A stretch of 59,114 nt of DNA. It comes from Savitreella phatthalungensis. Its lineage: Eukaryota. The notes beneath the pieces were generated by a model. That model made no database searches. It worked only from the letters and a program-made list of their open reading frames with translations, and had not been told where the DNA came from. Location: positions 558,001 to 617,114 of the forward strand of contig AP039696.1 in assembly GCA_051599415.1 (NCBI GenBank), written 5' to 3'. Numbering within the stretch: the stretch's first letter is position 1; the number at the start of each line of letters is the position of its first letter. Positions 49,568-59,114 of the stretch are shown piece after piece. The position numbers and the translations under genes are program-made.

Positions 49568-49662
49568 CGATTCCGGCATGACTCGAACACGCAATCTCCC
49601 GATTTCGAACGCTTCTGAAAGCGTCTCGTAGTCGGACGCCTTGACCATTGGGCCACGGAACC
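49568..49662 (-). tRNA. tRNA-Arg(ACG) with 22-nt intron (49604-49625)
   Basis: Minus strand folds as GGTTCCG TG GCCCAATGGTCAAGGC G TCCGA CT-ACG-A [GACGCTTTCAGAAGCGTTCGAA] A TCGGG AGATT GCGTG TTCGAGT CATGC CGGAATC G. Acceptor, anticodon and T stems pair, and the intron is at the canonical 37/38 position. Confidence 0.95.
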
Positions 49663-49799: not shown

Positions 49800-50990
49800 C
49801 TTCCACTGCAGACAACAGTCAATAGCGCAGGGACAGTGTAATAGCGGTAGCGATGATCACAACCAATGAGAAGTGGACTAAGCAGCAGAGTGAGGCAGGA
49901 AAGCAGCACAGACAAGCAGGATAGCAATGGCACAGACAGCATGCAATATGTGACAGGGAATAGTACGCGTGGCAATGCACATAGGCATTAGAAGCAAGTG
50001 ACAGTGGATAGGAATCAATTGTGGAGAATAGCACAGCACAAGCAGCAGTTTTGACAAGCGTCAGTGAAGGAAACAATGCATGGCATGTGACATTGCAGTT
50101 AATTGATGTTGCACAATAGGCGCCATTGCCGATTACAGGCAGAGGAATGAGAATGCAGGCAACAAGGTGGGATCAGGGCCAAGCAGGTGGGGTTCATGAC
50201 GAGCAGAGGCAGAGTCAATGGCAGGGGCCAAGTGACAAGTGACAGTGCAGCAAAGACAGTCAAAGGAATGAGAATGCAGGCAACAGAGTAGGGTCAGAGC
50301 CAAGCAAGCGGTGTTTGTGACAAGCAGAGACATAGTCAGCAAGGGCCAGGTGTTCAAATGACAAGTGACAGTGCAGGAATGACATATCAAGTGAAGTTGC
50401 AGTGTTCAACAGATGACAGTGATGGAACAGGGTATAGTGCAGGCAACAAGTGTGCGACAGAAAACAGGAGATGACAGATGAACAGCAATTGGCAGATCCA
50501 GGGTTTGACAAATGCCAGCGCCCAAAGCAGGGCAATGAGGCAAGAAGGAGCACAGGTGACGGTATTTGAGAGATGATGACACAAGTGACAGTGCAGATAA
50601 CACCGGGTGACAGATGATTGTGCAAGCAACAGCACACGGCAGACAACGGTGCAGATAACAGGATTTGAAGGAGACCAGGCAGGTAACAACATTTGACAGG
50701 GACAGGGCAGGTGACAGCATGTGAGGGTTACAGGGTGTGTAATGGCAGTTGAGAGATGGCAGTGCAGGTGTTGGGATTGATGAGTGATTTTGACAGTTGA
50801 TGGCATTTGGTAGGTGATGGCATTTGCCAGGCGGCAGGGCGGTTTTAGGGATTGGACAAGTGGCAGTTCAGGTAACAGCATTTGAGAGGCGACATGCAGG
50901 TAACAGCATGTGACAGGTGACATGCAAATAACAGTATTTGGCAGGTGACATGCAGATAACGGCATTTGGCATTTGGCAGGTGACTAGATA
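49800..50990. repeat. Degenerate, purine-skewed, CpG-depleted subtelomeric repeat tract
   Basis: Recurring GCAGGTGACA / GACAAGTGACAGTGCAG / ATTTGGCA motifs; ~120-bp direct duplication (about 50143-50250 vs 50265-50377); very few CG and many CA/TG. Confidence 0.75.
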
Positions 50991-51069
50991 TATTCCTCGC
51001 GTTTGACCCCGTTGGTTTGACCTGGGTTAGATAGGGGCAATTTTTTCGCTTGACGAACGGCGCAATGCA

Positions 51070-54010
51070 CAAAAATTTGGCGCCGTTGGTCGTGCATCCA
51101 ACCTCATTTTGGCGCCAAAATGGCGCCGTTTGTCAGCGGGGCCGGCAAGACAAAATTTGGTCCTATCTGGAGGCCCTCAGTCAAATAATTTGATCACCAA
51201 AAAAGTATCAATTTTGGCGCCGTCGGTCAAAAATAGGTCACGTTTGGCGCCGTTGGTTCTATTTGATCACCAAAAAATATCGAAATTGGCGCCGTCGGGA
51301 GAAAATAGATTACTTGGCGCCGTTGGTTTTGTGCATCCACACAGAATTGGCGCCGTTCGTCAAGCACCTGACCAAAATTGGCGCCGTCGGTTTTGTGCAT
51401 CCACACTGAATTGGCGCCGTCGGTCAAGCATTCTAGCGCAAATTTGGCGCCGTCGGTCAACCACATAGCACTGAAATGGCGCCGTTGGTTCTGTGCATCC
51501 ACACAGAATTGGCGCCGTCGGTCAACCACATAGCACTGAAATGGCGCCGTTGGTTCTGTGCATCCACACAGAATTGGCGCCGTTCGTCAAGCACCTGACC
51601 AAAATTGGCGCCGTCGGTTTTGTGCATCCACACTGAATTGGCGCCGTCGGTCAAGCATTCTAGCGCAAATTTGGCGCCGTCGGTCAACCACATAGCACTG
51701 AAATGGCGCCGTTGGTTCTGTGCATCCACACAGAATTGGCGCCGTCGGTCAACCACATAGCACTGAAATGGCGCCGTTGGTTCTGTGCATCCACACAGAA
51801 TTGGCGCCGTTCGTCAAGCACCTGACCAAAATTGGCGCCGTCGGTTTTGTGCATCCACACTGAATTGGCGCCGTCGGTCAAGCATTCTAGCGCAAATTTG
51901 GCGCCGTCGGTCGACCACATAGCACTGAAATGGCGCCGTTGGTTCTGTGCATCCACACAGAATTGGCGCCGTCGGTCAACCACATAGCACTGAAATGGCG
52001 CCGTTGGTTCTGTGCATCCACACAGAATTGGCGCCGTTGGTCAAGCATCCTAGCACAAAATTGGCGCCGTTGGTCAATCACATAGCACAAAATTGGCGCC
52101 GTCGGTCAACCACATAGCACTGAAATGGCGCCGTTGGTTCTGTGCATCCACACAGAATTGGCGCCGTTTGTCAACCACATAGCACAAAATTGGCGCCGTC
52201 GGTCAATCACATAGTAATGATTTGGCGCCGTTGGTCAACCACATAGCAGCAAATTGGCGCCGTCGGTTTTGTGCATCCACACAGAATTGGCGCCGTTGGT
52301 CGAGCATCCTAGCACAAATTTGGCGCCGTCGGTCAATCACATAGTAATGATTTGGCGCCGTCGGTCAAACACACAGCAACAATTTGGCGCCGTCGGTCAA
52401 TCACACAGCAACAATTTGGCGCCGTCGGTCAATCACACAGCAACAATTTGGCGCCGTCGGTCAAACACACAGCAGCAAATTGGCGCCGTCGGTCAAACAC
52501 ACAGCAACAATTTGGCGCCGTCGGTCAATCACACAGCAACAATTTGGCGCCGTCGGTCAAACACACAGCAGCAAATTGGCGCCGTCGGTCAATCACATAG
52601 TAATGATTTGGCGCCATTGGTCAACCACATAGCAGCAAATTGGCGCCGTCGGTTTTGTGCATCCACACAGAATTGGCGCCGTCGGTCGAGCATCCTAGCA
52701 CAAATTTGGCGCCGTCGGTCAAACACACAGCAATGATTTGGCGCCGTCGGTCAACCACACAGCAGCAAATTGGCGCCGTTTGTTCTGTGCATCCACACAG
52801 AATTGGCGCCGTTGGTCAACCACATAGCAGCAAATTGGCGCCGTCGGTTTTGTGCATCCACACAGAATTGGCGCCGTCGGTCGAGCATCCTAGCACAAAT
52901 TTGGCGCCGTCGGTCAATCACATAGTAATGATTTGGCGCCGTCGGTCAAACACACAGCAACAATTTGGCGCCGTCGGTCAATCACACAGCAACAATTTGG
53001 CGCCGTCGGTCAATCACACAGCAACAATTTGGCGCCGTCGGTCAAACACACAGCAGCAAATTGGCGCCGTCGGTCAAACACACAGCAACAATTTGGCGCC
53101 GTCGGTCAAACACACAGCAACAATTTGGCGCCGTCGGTCAATCACACAGCAATGATTTGGCGCCGTCGGTCAATCACGTAGCACTAAATTGGCGCCGTCG
53201 GTCAACCACATAGCAGCAAATTGGCGCCGTCGGTCAAGCACCTGACCAAAATTGGCGCCGTCGGTTTTGTGCATCCACACTGAATTGGCGCCGTCGGTCA
53301 GCCACATAGCACTGAAATGGCGCCGTTGGTTCTGTGCATCCACACAGAATTGGCGCCGTTGGTCAACCACATAGCACAAAATTGGCGCCGTTGGTTTTGT
53401 GCATCCACACAGAATTGGCGCCGTCGGTCGAGCATCCTAGCACAAATTTGGCGCCGTCGGTCAATCACACAGCAATGATTTGGCGCCGTCGGTCAATCAC
53501 ACAGCAATGATTTGGCGCCGTCGGTCAAACACACAGCAACAATTTGGCGCCGTCGGTCAATCACACAGCAACAATTTGGCGCTGTCGGTCAAACACACAG
53601 CAGCAAATTGGCGCCGTCGGTCAATCACATAGTAATGATTTGGCGCCGTCGGTCAAACACACAGCAACAATTTGGCGCCGTCGGTCAATCACACAGCAAT
53701 GATTTGGCGCCGTCGGTCAAGCACCTGACCAAAATTGGCGCCGTCGGTTTTGTGCATCCACACTGAATTGGCGCCGTCGGTCAACCACATAGCACTGAAA
53801 TGGCGCCGTCGGTCAATCACATAGTAATGATTTGGCGCCGTTGGTCAACCACATAGCAGCAAATTGGCGCCGTTGGTCAACCACATAGCAGCAAATTGGC
53901 GCCGTCGGTCAACCACATAGCAGCAAATTGGCACCGTCGGTCAATCACACAGCAACAATTTGGCGCCGTCGGTCAAACACACAGCAATGATTTGGCGCCG
54001 TCAGTCAAGT
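51070..54010. repeat. Subtelomeric minisatellite, ~90 units of 31-33 bp, core (A/T)TTGGCGCCGT(C/T)GGT, with higher-order repeats
   Basis: Near-invariant TGGCGCCG core with a small recurring set of tails (TCTGTGCATCCACACAG, CAACCACATAGCACTG, CAAGCACCTGACC, CAAGCATTCTAGCGC, CAATCACACAGCAAC, CAATCACATAGTAATG). A 227-bp seven-unit block repeats about three times from 51315. Confidence 0.95.
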
Positions 54011-54039
54011 ATCCGCACCAGACTCGAATGCATTCTTGA

Positions 54040-54660
54040 CCAGCGCTTGCCAGACTCTGCAGTAGCATCAACAAGCACTTGTCAGACTCTGCAGCATGAT
54101 TGACAATCACTAGTTGGACACTACAGCATGATCAACAATCACTTGTCGGACACTAAAGCATGATTGACGAGCACTCGCTAGACTCTGAGGCATTATCGAC
54201 CAGTACTTGCGAGACTCAGCAGCATCATCGATCAGCACTTGCAAGACTCAGCAGCATCATCGACAAGACACTGAAGCATCATCGACGAGACACTGAAGCA
54301 TCATCGACGAGACACTGAAGCATCATCGACGAGCATTTGCCAAACTTAGCAGCATCATTCACAAGCACTCGCCGGACTTTGCAGCATCATTGACAAGCAC
54401 TTGCTGGACTCTGCAGCATCATCAACAAGCACTCGCCGGACTCTGCAGCATCATCGACAAGTACTCGCCGGACTTTGCAGCATCATCGACAAGCACTTGC
54501 CGCACTCTGCAGCATCATCGACAAGCACTCGCCGGACTTTGCAGCATCATCGACAAGCACTTGCCGCACTCTGCAGCATCATCGACAAGCACTCGCCGCA
54601 CTCTGCAGCATCATCAACAAGCACTCGCCAGACTGCGTCAATATCAACGAGCACCCCCAC
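54040..54660. repeat. Second subtelomeric minisatellite, 32-bp unit GCAGCATCATCGACAAGCACTCGCCGGACTCT
   Basis: Period 32 (copies at 54381, 54413...), with more eroded copies on the left; internal 22-bp sub-repeat GACACTGAAGCATCATCGACGA x3 at 54267-54332. Confidence 0.92.
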
Positions 54661-54843: not shown

Positions 54844-57800
54844 CTAGCAAGCCGGTGTGGCGCGCCTGAGTGAGCCCTCTGATTCGACAAAGAGAGACCA
54901 GAGAAGCAAGGTTGCCAGACTTGCAGGCAGAGACGAAATCCAGAACCGGAGTTGGCGAAGGTGCAAGATAAAGCTGGTGCCGCTCGACAACATTGCTATC
55001 ACTTCCTCCTCAGAGCTGAAGTAGTGGTTCAAGGCACGCAACAGATGTGGATCCTGTCTGTGGTACAGGCCCCAGAGAAGCGGCAGCACCGTGTCCCCGA
55101 GCACGCAGCTGCTTGCCCCCTGCTGCTTCCGCGCCAGATAGCATATTTTCATCGCATTGTCGCACACATAACACACAGCCATCTTGTGGTCGTACTTTGC
55201 GGCGTCCATCTTGTCGGCCACAAAGCGTCGATGTCGGGCACAGCTGTCCTTGTTCTCAGCACGGCAATCCTCATCAAACGCCAGGCAGACAGCGCACTTG
55301 CCATTGTAGGCAGTGAGGAAGTCCACCGTCTTTTGCAACGCGTAGTCGAGTTCGTTGCGCTCAGACTCTGTCAGCTGGGCAAAAGACAGCTTGGCCTCTG
55401 TCTGGCCATTTGTTGACCTCAACGAGACAGCTGCAGAGTGTACCGTGCCGGGTGCTTGCGTTGCTGAGTTTGGTGTGGCCGGCGCTCGACCTGCGCCTCT
55501 TGTGTGCAACCCAAACTCAAGGGATGCGTTCGGCGTCGACGGCACTTGGCTGTGGACATGTGGCAACGCCGTCAGGTCTCCAGGGCTGCGGCGCACAGCT
55601 GAGTATTCCCGTCTCATGGTCCTCCGTGATGTGTTGGACGGAGTGGGAGAATGTGTACCAGGGTAAGGCCATGTCTGGTCCAGTGCCGCTCGCCCTGGCC
55701 CATTGCGCTGAGGTGCCGACGGCCGACTATATCGTGGGAGGCTTGGTCCGGGATTGCTGTACAAGGGCGACGGGCTGCTGCACACATCAGCGGTCTCTCG
55801 GCGACGTTTTGGTGACTGTCTGCCACCGGATGGCTCCAGTGTCAGGTCAACCGTGGGGTGCACAAGCACACTTGTGGCGTCTGTGAGATCTGTGACCGGA
55901 GGCGCGGCGTTGTCTGCCTCAACGCGCCTGACGGGCGCTGTTGCAAGCTGGGAGGCCGTCAAGACTGGCTGGGAGTTCTCGTCGATCTGAGACTGGCAGA
56001 GGTCACACAGCCGACGGCCTGCATTGATGCAAGTCGCTCGTCTGCCATCAAGAAAGTCCTGCATTACTGCCGTCCGGCACTCGACAGCGCTCAGCAGCCT
56101 TCTCATCTGCAGCACAGACTGGATCCGTAGCAGGCCCGCAGTGTCTCGGTTCTCGTCCTCAGGAGGCAGGAAACCTCCCGACGGCATCAGAACATACGAC
56201 CACGCACCCTTGCCATCGCGCCCTGCCCTGCCAATCTCCTGTGCATAGTCGATCAAAGAGTACGGCGCGTTGCTGTGCACAACAAGCCGGATATCTGCAC
56301 AGTCCAATCCGGTGCCGAGGGCGGTGGTGCCCACGATGACGAGTCTCGAGGAATCCTGCCGCCATGCAGCAAGTATCCGCTCGCGTTGGATATGATGGAC
56401 GCTCCTGTGGATGAGCGGCCAGCTGTTCTCCTCGGCCAGCTGTGTGGCTGCGTGCCTTGTCTTGCAGATGACCATGGCACGATCGTCGGGCTTGATCCTG
56501 TGGCGGTCGAGCAGGCGCAGCACTGTCTCAGACACAAGCTTGGAGGTGAGCCTCTGGACGGTCTCGACATTCAGGCTGATGTCCTTGCGGATGGTTTTGT
56601 GGTCCCGGAAGACAATTGTTGGCATGGGGTGATCTCGCAACACCTTCTCTGCGAGGTCATTCTGCCAGCTCCTCGGCAAGGTGCCGGTCATTAGGAGCAT
56701 CGACGTTCCAATGCCTGATAGGGTGAACAATGAGTCCATAACGTTTCTGTACCCTGACGCCGTGATGGCCGAGTGGACCTCGTCCACAATGATCTTGACC
56801 AGCCTCCCTTCGGCATGCAGTCTTTTCAGATAGTCAATATGTCTGGTTGTTGTGCCTTCCTCAACACTCACGAGATGGACCTCGCAATTGTGGGGGCCGT
56901 CTGCCCAGTCAGCGACATTGATGCCATGATGAAGGAAACGTCGCTTCAGATCCACACGAAGGGTCGCAAGAGGCGCCACCACGGCGACGACCCGTTGCGA
57001 GGGGCCACAAGTCTGGCAAGCACCATGACGGGCAGTGTCTTGCCAGCGCCGGTCTGCTGGACGACCAGGGCATTGTAGCCACGATCGTTCACAAGAAACC
57101 TTGCCAGGTCGAGCTGCCCTGGCTTCCAGGCAAAATTGTCGGTGGAAGCGCCGATGATTGACTGGGCAGCCTCGAGCAATCTTGCGTCGCTAACCTGATT
57201 GGAGACCTCACTGTCGAGCTCGGCGGATGACTGACCTGCCGGCCTGATGCCAAAGACCATTTGCCAGGCACTGCTGGCACCGAGGATGGCCATGCAATCC
57301 TCAGGTCCAAGGTACTGGAGGGGCCCGACCTGCGCAAGCTGTCCGTAGTGGTGGGTCGCCGTGTGCGCCGTGTGACCGCTCTGCTTGAGGAATGCATCGC
57401 GCATGAGCGTGTCGGGCGACCCTTTGTCCGGCATGAAAGATCTGGTGATGACCTCGGCAATCTGGCGGAGCTGGGCAAGGTTGATGGGCGGACAGCCAGC
57501 TCTGGCGCAGCAAGCTTGAAGGGACCTCCGTAGCTGATCGGACGTCAGCGGCCGGTTGTTGACAGTTGCAAACATGAAGGCCACCTGTGGCGCACAAACA
57601 CCGCAGAGTGCACGCAGCATGGGCGCCACGTACACGCAGTAGTCGACGACAAGCTGAGCAACCTCCGGCGGGAGGTAACGGTGATTCCCGACGACATCGT
57701 TGCGAGTTGTCCTTGTGGTTTTTGCGTGCTGTGCAGACAACATCAGCATTCCCGACTCGAAGCTCAGGCCGCGGCGACCTCGGTAATTGGTGTTGACGGT

Positions 57801-58902
57801 AGTCTGTAGAAGCTCGGTCCCACGCATTGGTGTACTGGCGTAAGCATGGCAGAGAACCGCGAGGCTCTTGACCAGGTCCAGCGCCTGGGCCCGATAGCGG
57901 AACCGAACAGGCGAGGCGACGACGGTGGGAACAAACACAGGCATGCAGCCCGCCGCATGGCCGTATCCGGTTGTTTCCTCGAAGGAGTCTTCAAGGTCGT
58001 CAGTCTCGCCACTGGGGACGTGGTTGCTATTGTTGTCGTCATTGTCGTCGTCATCGTCCTTGTCGGCCGATGCAGCAGCACTGTGTCGTAACCAGCCTTG
58101 ACCCTCGAACGTCTTTGATCTCTCGGCAGCCGCAATCATCTCCTTGACATGGCCGTCAAGCATGTTGTCGGTGATGAACGAGGCAAACTTGTCCGAGTGC
58201 CGAGCGGGCAGTAGCTTGTCGAGCTCGACGTGCATGTCGGTGCCAAAGGTCAGCTCCCGGTAGAGACCGCGGGCGTGCGTCAAGGTGCTGTGGTAGACCT
58301 CGGCAAGCTGTTCGAGTGTGACAGACAGACCGTCGACCAGGAAGGCACCCCCAACATAGCTGCACTGTGTGCTCGAGCGCTCGTGCTCGGCCGCACGCCG
58401 GAGGGAACAATTGAGCAGGAGGAGGAATCCCATCGGCGTGCTCCGGCTGTTGCAGAGGTAACTCCCGCAGAATGCGGCGAGGGCGTCATTGATGGGGAAC
58501 TGGTGAGTCTGGGCAATGTGGCGCATGATCATGAGCTGGGCGCAGTAGATGAGTCCTGCGCACTTGGACGAGATGGTGTGGGCGGGGTAGAACGATCCAC
58601 CGCTGGGCGGTCGCGAGGTGCGCGCAATGTACATCATCATCGGCGACTCCAGCGACGACTGTTTGATTGTCTGGGTGATCATGCCCATGATGCACTCAAA
58701 CACGGCCTCGATTGTGGGTGCGACCGCGGTCTTGCAGCAGGACACGGCTCCTGCGAGGTAGGATGAGTACTTCTGGAGGGTGCTCGGCTCCTTGTCGATC
58801 CGCATGGCGGGGCTGCCCTCACCTTCCTGTCCGGTGTACTTTGTCAGGATTGTGCGGGTGAGGAGATTGAGCCAGCCGCCACGGCAGTTGTCATGGGTCT
58901 CC
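54844..58902 (-). pseudogene. Telomere-linked RecQ-like helicase (TLH-like) with upstream tyrosine-recombinase-like domain; 5' end abuts telomere, 1-nt frameshift near 56991-57004
   Basis: ORF 56946-58902 carries MRGTEL...HAKT...LRQI...SGHTAHTATHHYG, then Q-motif-like WKPGQ and Walker A TGAGKT. ORF 54844-56982 continues VAPLATL, VDEVH, MTGT, TTALGTGLD, QEIGRAGRDG, RQC-type CR...C...CDLC and C-terminal Cys clusters. The frameshift may be a sequencing error, so the gene could be intact from ATG 58805. Confidence 0.88.
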
Positions 58903-59011
58903 TTAGGGTTTAGGGTTAGGGTTAGGGTTAGGGTTAGGGTTAGGGTTAGGGTTAGGGTTAGGGTTAGGGTTAGGGTTAGGGTTAGGGTTAGGGTTAGGGT
59001 TAGGGTTAGGG
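58903..59011 (+). repeat. Telomeric repeat (TTAGGG)n, 18 units
   Basis: TTAGGG at 58903, one extra T at 58909, then 17 perfect units 58910-59011; G-rich strand runs toward the sequence end. Confidence 0.98.
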
Positions 59012-59012
59012 T

Positions 59013-59114
59013 AGGTGCTGTTCTCGCAAAGGCAGAAAGTAGTCTTAACCTTAGCAATACGTAACTGAACCAGTAGAAGTACATCTCGCAAAGGCAGAAA
59101 GTAGTACTAATACA
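59013..59114. other. Untrimmed Oxford Nanopore native barcode + ligation adapter (artefact)
   Basis: AGGTGCTG-TTCTCGCAAAGGCAGAAAGTAGTC-TTAACCTT-AGCAATACGTAACTGAAC = native-barcode flanks, reverse complement of NB06 as I recall it, and adapter; a partial second barcode copy near 59084-59105. Confidence 0.93.

What the first reader, a model, noticed from the sequence alone, without database searches (positions are those of the whole stretch)
51070..54010. ~90-unit phased array: invariant palindromic GGCGCC core plus a small alphabet of tails in higher-order blocks
Seen: the TGGCGCCG core recurs every 31-33 bp (about three helical turns). Tails come from roughly eight recurring types, ordered in a 227-bp seven-unit block (x3 from ~51315) and a ~581-bp-offset duplication (52352 vs 52933). 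The left edge has a perfect 14-bp palindrome TTTTGGCGCCAAAA (51107-51120). Established: helicase-associated tandem repeats accompany TLH genes in Magnaporthe. Inference: a conserved core and spacing with free tails suggests selected protein-binding sites on one helix face (iteron-like array, silencer or recombination platform), possibly for the neighbouring YR-helicase. The core resembles an E2F site although Dikarya lack E2F.
Basis: partly seen in the sequence, partly recalled or inferred. Interest (0 to 1): 0.72.

Follow-up and report, generated by a model that had tools for sequence, protein, structure and literature searches.

The report
Repeat-lined end of subtelomeric recombinase element
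This repeat array is part of one sharply cut end of a fungal 'telomere-linked helicase' element whose protein has a DNA cut-and-rejoin (tyrosine recombinase) fold, and because all such ends found in this genome face the nearest telomere, the element may build the chromosome ends by swapping itself onto them, with the repeats as likely docking sites for its protein.

Summary
The array is real: 84 contiguous 31-33-bp units with tail families and 227/581-bp higher-order blocks. Three details are wrong. The conserved part is an asymmetric 15-mer (TTGGCGCCGTYKGTC), not just GGCGCC. Phasing holds only between neighbours. The 14-bp palindrome is private to this copy.

The array begins 95 bp inside a base-precise terminus (CTAGATATATTCC, 50984). 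That terminus recurs at 10 places on 7 chromosome ends, with 9 different flanks. A sister terminus (CTATATATATTCC, 31 copies) lies upstream of a paralogous gene and carries its own 13-bp array. All 41 termini point toward a telomere; nested ones replace the distal DNA; 13 of 15 reconstructable targets share the terminal C. The neighbouring gene is a telomere-linked helicase (TLH) whose middle domain folds like Xer/Cre (Z 12.1) and keeps R-K-R-H-Y.

Best reading: the array is a subterminal binding array of a YR-helicase element that joins whole telomere-capped arms onto chromosome ends. Binding and movement are inferred, not shown. TLH-associated repeats are published. This scan found the YR fold in TLH before, on other DNA; the genome-wide polarised two-terminus anatomy is new here.

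The parts
49990..50983 (+). G-rich subtelomeric module, the target DNA; cut off at the junction
   Evidence: Same module lies near the telomere at most of the 56 ends. Un-inserted copies continue GGTGA|CGGTGC where the window reads GGTGA|CTAGAT.
50984..50996 (+). Element terminus ('A end'), 13-bp motif CTAGATATATTCC; 12 of 13 identical to the 'B end' upstream of the paralogous gene on contig C22
   Evidence: Alignments of all copies start at 50983/50984. Ten junctions with 9 different flanks. A and B compared. Contigs of runs X1/X2 also start at 50983.
51008..51016 (+). Partial motif copy (CCCGTTGGT) that switches with the array subtype
51050..51065 (-). Inverted copy of the array motif; can pair with the first direct copy
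   Evidence: fold z -2.8
51076..51314 (+). Fixed subterminal region with five irregularly spaced motif copies, alignable across the 9 full-length A ends
51107..51120 (.). 14-bp palindrome, private to this copy
51315..54010 (+). Regular array: 84 units of 31-33 bp, core TTGGCGCCGTYKGTC, 6 tail families, 227-bp block x3 and 581-bp offset duplication
54030..54634 (+). Second 32-bp array (GACAAGCACTTGCCGGACTCTGCAGCATCATC-like), found between array and gene in the 4 gene-bearing copies
54844..57189 (-). RecQ-like SF2 helicase and C-terminal part of the TLH gene (P0001)
   Evidence: Helicase_C E 4.5e-17; dN/dS 0.16-0.25 in the helicase core between copies
56946..58901 (-). N-terminal part of the TLH gene (P0002). 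It is cut off at its 5' end by the telomere, with a frame break near 56,990 (real or long-read error); the frame is continuous in the C1 copy
57222..57944 (-). Tyrosine-recombinase-fold domain ('TLH domain' position), catalytic R, K, R, H, Y present
58903..59012 (+). Telomere (TTAGGG)n added directly inside the gene
59013..59114 (+). Non-genomic tail, adapter/barcode-like (identity as a nanopore adapter is recalled, not looked up)
   Evidence: The same letters follow the telomere of other contigs and sit inside the C2 telomere-telomere join.

Best explanation
The array is the subterminal repeat of one end (the end downstream of the gene, 'A') of a telomere-linked helicase (TLH) mobile element in a Taphrinomycotina-type fungus. 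The element's protein joins zinc fingers/OrsD, a tyrosine-recombinase (YR) domain and a RecQ-like helicase.

Shown: (1) a base-precise terminus with a 13-bp motif shared by the upstream end ('B') of a paralogous element; (2) termini only near telomeres and always facing them; (3) stacked, non-autonomous arms in which the target's distal DNA is gone; (4) a YR fold with catalytic residues; (5) a conserved asymmetric 15-mer, present as dispersed, inverted and tandem copies, that changes in concert between two subtypes.

Inferred: the YR cuts at the C|TA terminus and joins it to a C-bearing site near another chromosome end, so that the whole arm from terminus to telomere replaces that end. This could be a single crossover, or a strand peeled off by the 3'-5' helicase and re-replicated. 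The 15-mer copies are docking sites that load the element's own protein near the terminus, as arm-type or subterminal sites do (analogy recalled). The array length (17-86 cores) and the higher-order blocks are ordinary unequal-exchange products. Odds: array belongs to the element end, about 0.9; enzyme-made junctions, about 0.75; motif bound by the element's protein, about 0.5; one-ended transfer rather than insertion followed by truncation, about 0.55.
For: Ten A termini with 9 different flanks and an identical start; all 9 arrays of this family in the 12.7-Mb genome lie behind one. 10 A and 31 B termini face the telomere and 0 face inward in 56 ends; they lie 1.0-8.7 kb from a telomere. 19 of 20 exact CTANATATATTCC hits genome-wide are such termini (control 1). 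13 of 15 independent junctions with a recoverable empty site share the terminal C, some CT or CTA. No inward-facing terminal motif lies distal to any of 13 nested junctions tested. B ends range from 67 to 100% identity, which suggests repeated activity over time. Core 88% against tail 51% identity. The motif state (TT against YG/TC) is the same at +25, at the inverted copy, at most fixed copies and in the array of each end. YR fold: the top 10 of 48,161 chains are all tyrosine recombinases, best Z 12.1, rmsd 3.4 over 153 residues; R 99%, K 100%, R 99%, H 94% and Y 93% conserved in 141 aligned sequences. Purifying selection on the gene, dN/dS 0.34 overall. Precedent for YR element ends recombining with a bare target to give translocations: CryptonF-1 (PMC9977147, passages).
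Against: No binding, expression or movement was measured. The 31 B termini do without the GGCGCC array (one partial CAGCRGCGCCAG only, plus an unrelated 13-bp array), so this motif is not needed at every end. One fixed motif copy (+129/+140) stays TT in both subtypes. The inverted copy shares 3-4 further bases with particular array units, which points to gene conversion as a cause of the covariation. No complete element with both ends exists in this assembly, so the pairing of A and B rests on a 13-bp motif and on two genes only 52% identical. The canonical His of HxxR is not conserved. Foldseek gave no match at E 0.001 or better (best 2.6e-3, XerH), and Pfam and PDB sequence searches gave no YR hit. 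C10R-distal and the C2 internal end share flank and telomere junction, so homologous copying between ends also operates. 25 of 41 junctions had no recoverable empty site, and 2 of 15 lack the C.
Confidence: 0.5

Rival explanations
1. Hitch-hiking minisatellite: the array is a by-product amplified from the element's subterminal DNA. The core stays uniform because slippage and conversion occur in register on it, and nothing binds the array.
For: Copy number varies from 17 to 86 and higher-order blocks are typical of unequal exchange. Tails such as GTGCATCC also occur in the fixed end region. The inverted copy matches specific units beyond the core. B ends lack the motif array. No global phasing.
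Against: Tails have diverged almost to background (51% against 42% shuffled) while the core stays at 88%. The core is kept although it is CpG-rich and 14 of 16 sporadic core changes are CpG transitions. Dispersed, irregularly spaced copies with unrelated flanks are also kept.
Confidence: 0.25
2. Host-factor array: the 15-mer is bound by a host protein (silencer, boundary or end-protection factor), as proposed for Magnaporthe HARs and yeast X repeats.
For: HARs were proposed to spread silencing (PMC1635262, passages). The genome encodes a DNMT5-like methylase-SNF2 protein, and core changes are mostly CpG transitions, which fits methylated repeats.
Against: The array is present at only 7 of 56 ends and always behind the A terminus. 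The motif differs between two element subtypes within one genome, which a single host factor would not need.
Confidence: 0.17
3. Same element and same role for the array, but movement is two-ended (B...gene...A inserted whole). The one-sided picture then arises later by terminal truncation, telomere healing and break-induced copying between ends. This rival concerns the movement step only.
For: A and B termini form a 13-bp inverted pair relative to the gene. All 5 gene copies at ends are cut inside the gene by a telomere or a subtelomeric tail. Terminal truncation is frequent in other fungi (PMC1635262, PMC8381367, passages). Fusarium TLH regions are bounded units, often in arrays (10.1101/2024.02.27.582403, parts 1-3 of 4 read).
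Against: 0 of 41 termini face inward, no two-ended non-autonomous copy was found, and termini are absent from chromosome interiors. The same gene-less A arms occur behind different precise junctions (C1L and C26L; C10R and C16R).
Confidence: 0.35
4. E2F-like cell-cycle element array, or a palindrome/restriction-site-based structure.
For: TTTGGCGCC resembles an E2F site (recalled).
Against: The conserved unit is an asymmetric 15-mer, and the palindrome is in 1 of 10 ends. The Pfam E2F search found nothing but had no positive control.
Confidence: 0.02
5. Assembly artefact of long reads.
For: The assembly has adapter-like tails and one telomere-telomere misjoin on C2. The exact unit order inside the array was not checked against reads.
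Against: Nine arrays differ from each other, in two subtypes. Contigs of public runs start at the same terminus with other flanks, and a run from another study holds a 93%-identical end variant and array units.
Confidence: 0.02

Closest known systems
Telomere-linked helicase (TLH) regions with helicase-associated repeats (HARs), Magnaporthe oryzae (PMC1635262, passages read)
   Same: Subtelomeric RecQ-like gene with blocks of tandem repeats found nowhere else in the genome. [quoted passage not shown] Truncation by telomeres.
   Different: There the compound array lies upstream of the gene; here the array in question lies downstream, with the gene pointing away from the telomere, and a second terminus type gives the opposite orientation. 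The units here lack telomere motifs and have a conserved 15-mer with free tails. The passages read do not describe a recombinase or a mobile element.
Fusarium oxysporum TLH-containing regions (10.1101/2024.02.27.582403, parts 1-3 of 4 read)
   Same: Protein plan of C2H2 motifs, a ~250-residue 'TLH domain' of unknown function just upstream of the RecQ motifs, and the helicase. Bounded units stacked at chromosome ends.
   Different: Those units are flanked by telomere repeats and are mostly intact. Here junctions are mostly in non-telomeric DNA, most arms lack the gene, and every gene copy is cut. The paper assigns no catalytic function to the TLH domain.
Crypton DNA transposons, e.g. CryptonF-1_cRei (PMC9977147, passages read)
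   Same: Eukaryotic YR element; a short terminal donor sequence recombines with a matching target; can cause translocations with an element at one breakpoint only.
   Different: Cryptons use a 5-bp target and insert as two-ended units throughout the genome, and no helicase is mentioned for them in the passages read. Here shared homology is 1-3 bp, termini are inverted, there is a fused RecQ-like helicase, and the location is strictly subtelomeric and polarised.
Xer/Cre/integrase family (structures 4a8e, 5hxy, 5jjv, 1kbu, 6emy)
   Same: Catalytic-domain fold (Z 9-12) and R-K-R-H-Y residues.
   Different: 11-15% identity; His of HxxR not conserved; activity untested; topoisomerase IB scores Z 8.3 on the same model.
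Helitrons (features as described in PMC4522978 and 10.1101/2025.11.13.688278, passages)
   Same: On the gene's coding strand the A end finishes in CTAG-3' with a hairpin-forming pair upstream; no target duplication seen; a helicase is present.
   Different: No HUH Rep domain (the middle domain is YR-fold); the helicase is RecQ-like, not Pif1; the hairpin is about 65 nt from the end; the other end carries the same inverted motif.

Membership tests
Telomere-linked helicase (TLH) gene | RecQ-like helicase gene adjacent to telomeres, several copies | tested here: met
   5 gene copies within 5 kb of a telomere; Helicase_C and DEAD hits
Telomere-linked helicase (TLH) gene | N-terminal C2H2/OrsD region and conserved ~250-aa domain before the helicase | tested here: met
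   The C22 paralogue has PF12013 at E 1.3e-5, just under the curated cut-off. Of 30 long homologues chosen from 150 hits, 22 have PF12013 and 29 have helicase domains. The window copy has lost its N-terminus.
Telomere-linked helicase (TLH) gene | Groups with reference TLH proteins (M. oryzae TLH1, S. pombe Tlh1) in a tree | not tested
   No reference TLH sequence was in hand; 30 homologues looked up carried no TLH name
Helicase-associated repeats (HARs) | Tandem repeats confined to TLH regions, absent elsewhere | tested here: met
   All 22 BLAST matches of the array lie at 7 chromosome ends behind the A terminus
Helicase-associated repeats (HARs) | Telomere-like motifs in some units | tested here: not met
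   No TTAGGG/CCCTAA in the unit types listed; only some Magnaporthe HARs have them, so this is not defining for all
Tyrosine recombinase superfamily | Catalytic-domain fold | tested here: met
   AF2 model pLDDT 84; top 10 VIA-align rows all YRs, best Z 12.1; Foldseek top rows XerH/XerA/Cre at E 2.6e-3 and above
Tyrosine recombinase superfamily | R-K-HxxR-H/W-Y catalytic set | tested here: inconclusive
   R, K, R, H and Y conserved at 93-100% in 141 sequences and present in the window copy; the His of HxxR is not conserved
Tyrosine recombinase superfamily | 3'-phosphotyrosine cleavage and strand exchange | not testable with these tools
   Needs biochemistry
Crypton | Two-ended element with a short terminal donor matching a 4-6-bp target | tested here: not met
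   Shared homology 1-3 bp; no two-ended copy in 56 ends or genome-wide
Starship (features recalled) | DUF3435 captain as first gene, large cargo, two ends | tested here: not met
   No DUF3435 Pfam hit on either paralogue; arms are under 9 kb with one gene or none
Helitron | HUH Rep plus Pif1 helicase | tested here: not met
   The element's protein is YR-fold plus DEAD/Helicase_C. The genome-wide Helitron search was blank but had no positive control.
Iteron / arm-type binding array (analogy recalled) | Direct repeats of a conserved asymmetric site near a recombination or replication site | tested here: met
Iteron / arm-type binding array (analogy recalled) | Sites held in helical phase | tested here: not met
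   Period 3.07 turns; no phase coherence across the array; neighbours only
Iteron / arm-type binding array (analogy recalled) | Bound by the element's own protein | not testable with these tools
   Needs EMSA, ChIP or pull-down
E2F site array | E2F/DP gene in the host | tested here: inconclusive
   PF02319 found nothing, but controls also rang nowhere

The most novel reading that the evidence does not exclude
TLH genes are the transposases of an unrecognised class of eukaryotic mobile element that moves one-ended. The YR domain nicks a C|TA terminus, the RecQ-like helicase peels or exchanges the arm out to the telomere, and the arm with its telomere replaces another chromosome end. In this fungus that process has built most subtelomeres out of autonomous and non-autonomous arms, and the array is the loading platform whose 15-mer co-evolves with the element's protein.
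Probability: 0.3. Interest if true: 0.85.

Novelty: new variant of a known kind. Interest (0 to 1): 0.62.

Why it matters
TLH genes and their repeats have been described in several fungi without a known function or route of spread (10.1101/2024.02.27.582403; PMC1635262). This telomere-to-telomere genome supplies what a test needs: the exact terminal sequence, 41 junctions, a 1-3-bp target rule, strict polarity and a candidate binding motif in two subtypes. If the reading holds, subtelomeres here are the product of a recombinase-driven element, with helicase-associated repeats as its cis sites. That would recast TLH genes from telomere-maintenance helpers to selfish or domesticated end-capturing elements. 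If the array is only a passenger, it is an ordinary helicase-associated repeat.

Tried and rejected
Two word-index homologue searches with the C22 protein found nothing; the HMMER search found 243. A single-sequence fold was unusable (pLDDT 39). A PDB sequence search with the YR alignment hit only RecQ5 and RecQ4 weakly. The ESM Atlas gave unnamed fungal clusters and Phage_integrase only at 0.86, a lead.

A metagenome scan for the YR gene found no relative. A scan for two tandem cores gave 10 loci, none with the terminus, telomere repeats or a run of 31-33-bp units, so the array was not found outside this lineage there. No RNA holder was listed. Uneven contig depths in run X2 (8 to 428) were not interpreted. 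No A-B circle junction appeared among the loose ends shown, but contigs drop rare forms.

tRNA targeting was rejected: 2 tRNA genes in 55 end loci. Rfam found only a tRNA in six flanks. E2F and Helitron family searches had no working control. One-face phasing and the palindrome were rejected.

Paper searches that returned no paper linking TLH to a tyrosine recombinase: (listings seen; open-access library only). Rehmeyer et al. 2009, which defined the TLH domain, was not seen, nor were bioRxiv supplements. One search found nothing on Taphrina subtelomeres.
Full report
Setting. The window is the right end of contig C8 of a 12.7-Mb, 27-contig assembly, ending in (TTAGGG)n at 58903-59012. The genes are ordinary fungal housekeeping genes. 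The nearest named relative of the window's TAF2 is from Protomyces (38% identity), so I infer a Taphrinomycotina-type host. Contig C2 joins two telomeres through an adapter-like stretch, so I treated the genome as 56 ends and fetched 8-17 kb of each.

The observation. The array is real and far above chance: 81 exact 12-nt motif hits on one strand against 0 in window 1-51000. From 51315, 84 cores follow at 31-33 bp without a gap. The 227-bp block (x3, 99.6-100%) and the 581-bp duplication are as described. Six tail families cover the window, and 12 cover all arrays. Corrections: the conserved part is the asymmetric TTGGCGCCGTYKGTC; 3 of 84 units carry a change in GGCGCCG; the period is 3.07 turns, so phase is lost over the array; the 14-bp palindrome is in 1 of 10 copies. 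Because units tile the window array completely, core conservation there is not an artefact of selecting units by their core. Among 12 family representatives the core is 88% identical and the tails 51% (shuffled 42%).

What it belongs to. The array family occurs 9 times, on 7 chromosome ends, and nowhere else among the BLAST matches (the tool notes that repeat counts are lower bounds). Every copy starts behind the same terminus, CTAGATATATTCC, at window 50984; there are ten such 'A' termini, counting a 114-bp nested stub, with 9 different flanks. Four arrays lead through a second 32-bp array into the helicase gene, which points toward the terminus and is cut at its 5' side by a telomere. Two of these four are recent duplicates of each other. 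Four arrays lead into the common subtelomeric modules and one is cut by a telomere. A paralogous gene on C22 (52% identical) points the other way. Upstream of it is a second terminus, CTATATATATTCC ('B'), followed by a 13-bp array. B termini occur 31 times by pattern and range from 67 to 100% identity. All 41 termini lie 1.0-8.7 kb from a telomere on 30 of 56 ends and face it; none faces inward. Genome-wide, 19 of 20 exact hits to the shared motif are such termini. Sixteen of the 41 junctions (15 independent) had a copy of the empty site elsewhere. In 13 of these 15 the target has the terminal C, sometimes CT or CTA; 2 do not, and some rest on few or imperfect hits. Distal to 13 nested junctions no inward-facing terminal motif was found. 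Contigs of public runs X1 and X2 (possibly the source sample) also start at 50983 with other flanks. Run X4, from another study, holds a 93%-identical end variant at low depth.

The protein. The C22 copy has an OrsD/zinc-finger start (just under the Pfam cut-off) and a DEAD motif. Of 30 long homologues picked from the 150 best HMMER hits, 29 have helicase domains and 22 have OrsD. This is the TLH plan described for Fusarium and other fungi (10.1101/2024.02.27.582403, parts 1-3 of 4 read). The stretch in the position of the unexplained 'TLH domain' keeps R, K, R, H and Y at 93-100% in 141 aligned sequences. An AlphaFold model of the window's domain (pLDDT 84) matches only tyrosine recombinases in its top ten (best Z 12.1, rmsd 3.4, 153 residues; topoisomerase IB 8.3). 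Against this, Foldseek's best E is 2.6e-3, sequence searches show no YR, and the His of HxxR is missing. Copies of the gene show dN/dS 0.34, and 0.16-0.25 in the helicase core, but all five copies at ends are truncated.

The motif. Besides the tandem units, the A end holds a partial copy at +25, an inverted copy at +66 and five or six irregularly spaced direct copies. Ends fall into two subtypes. In 7 ends all of these read TT at the variable positions; in 3, including the window, they read TG, CG or TC, with one fixed copy staying TT. That is what a binding site co-evolving with a protein would give. It could also come from conversion, since the inverted copy shares a few extra bases with certain units. 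Of 16 sporadic changes in the core, 14 are CpG transitions, 8 of them in one array, so they are not all independent. The genome has a methylase-SNF2 (DNMT5-like) gene. Methylation, or base-calling error at methylated sites, is a likely cause (inference).

How it most likely works. Shown: precise termini, polarity, stacking, YR fold, conserved motif. Inferred: the YR joins a terminus to a C-bearing site near another chromosome end, so that the arm out to the telomere replaces that end, by one crossover or by helicase-driven strand peeling; the array loads the element's protein near the terminus. A Crypton precedent exists for one-breakpoint translocations (PMC9977147, passages). The main alternative for movement is whole-element insertion followed by truncation and copying between ends, which is known to be common in fungi (PMC1635262, PMC8381367; passages). 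For the array, the alternatives are a passenger minisatellite or a host-factor platform. B ends manage without this motif, which limits how essential it can be.

Comparison and novelty. Tandem repeats confined to TLH regions, and a sharp boundary at the C of CCTAACC, are published for Magnaporthe (PMC1635262, passages), so the array is a variant of a known kind. I found no paper tying TLH to a tyrosine recombinase (open-access library; Rehmeyer 2009 and bioRxiv supplements not seen). Other agents of this scan reported the YR fold in TLH genes, and one reported a CCTAAC start with stacking, on other genomes (read after my own fold test). No note existed for this genome or this protein, and none matched a word search for a polarised terminus with a subterminal array. 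What this locus adds is the whole-genome anatomy: two inverted termini, each with its own subterminal array, 41 of 41 polarised, with a 1-3-bp target rule. It is not filed as Crypton, Starship or Helitron because defining features were tested and not met. Passages only were also seen of PMC9940879, PMC4522978, 10.1101/2025.11.13.688278 and PMC12857005; none describes such an element.

Verdict. Interest 0.62, mostly for the element that the array marks.

Noticed in passing
L027:9653-9850 (G000:C2 ~311,050-311,250): Two chromosomes are joined telomere to telomere through about 55 nt that match the adapter-like tail of the window: an assembly misjoin.
   Followed up: yes
window 59013-59114: Adapter/barcode-like tail left beyond the telomere, also on other contigs.
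   Followed up: partly
L089:1889-8146 (-) (G000:C27): 2085-aa C5-methylase + SNF2 + Helicase_C gene (DNMT5-like); a second, 508-aa methylase frame on C4.
   Followed up: partly
L028:8050-9500 and equivalents on C1L, C10R, C15L, C26L: CTAG-rich subtelomeric module of about 450-bp period containing a 43-bp repeat with an inverted TGGCACC pair and CACGTG boxes; TGGCACC resembles the array core.
   Followed up: no
L032:4090-5300 (G000:C22 right end): Two stacked B termini, each followed by a 13-bp AAACCAAACTGCA array whose unit echoes CCCAAACTG in the terminus.
   Followed up: partly
L030:8500-8560 (G000:C18 right end): Telomere added directly inside an array core; this array carries 8 of the 14 CpG transitions seen in cores.
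   Followed up: partly
L033 (G000:C13:196,852-197,459): Decayed internal relic of the helicase with stops and no array.
   Followed up: no
G000 C16L, C17L, C23R, C27L: Four of 56 ends carry none of the shared subtelomeric modules within 8 kb.
   Followed up: no
window 49568-49662 (-): tRNA gene 1.3 kb inside the terminus; tRNA genes are not general at the other ends.
   Followed up: yes
L054 (G000:C22 left end), about 500 bp telomere-ward of the B terminus: tRNA-like B-box sequence within the ~700-bp segment of gene-less B arms, seen by eye; ARAGORN calls no tRNA there.
   Followed up: no
L032:1175-3100 (-): 641-aa ORF with no Pfam hit next to the C22 element.
   Followed up: no
window 50651-50968: 28-bp repeats (GCAGGTAACAGCATTTGACAGGTGACAT-like) in the G-rich module shared by most ends.
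   Followed up: no
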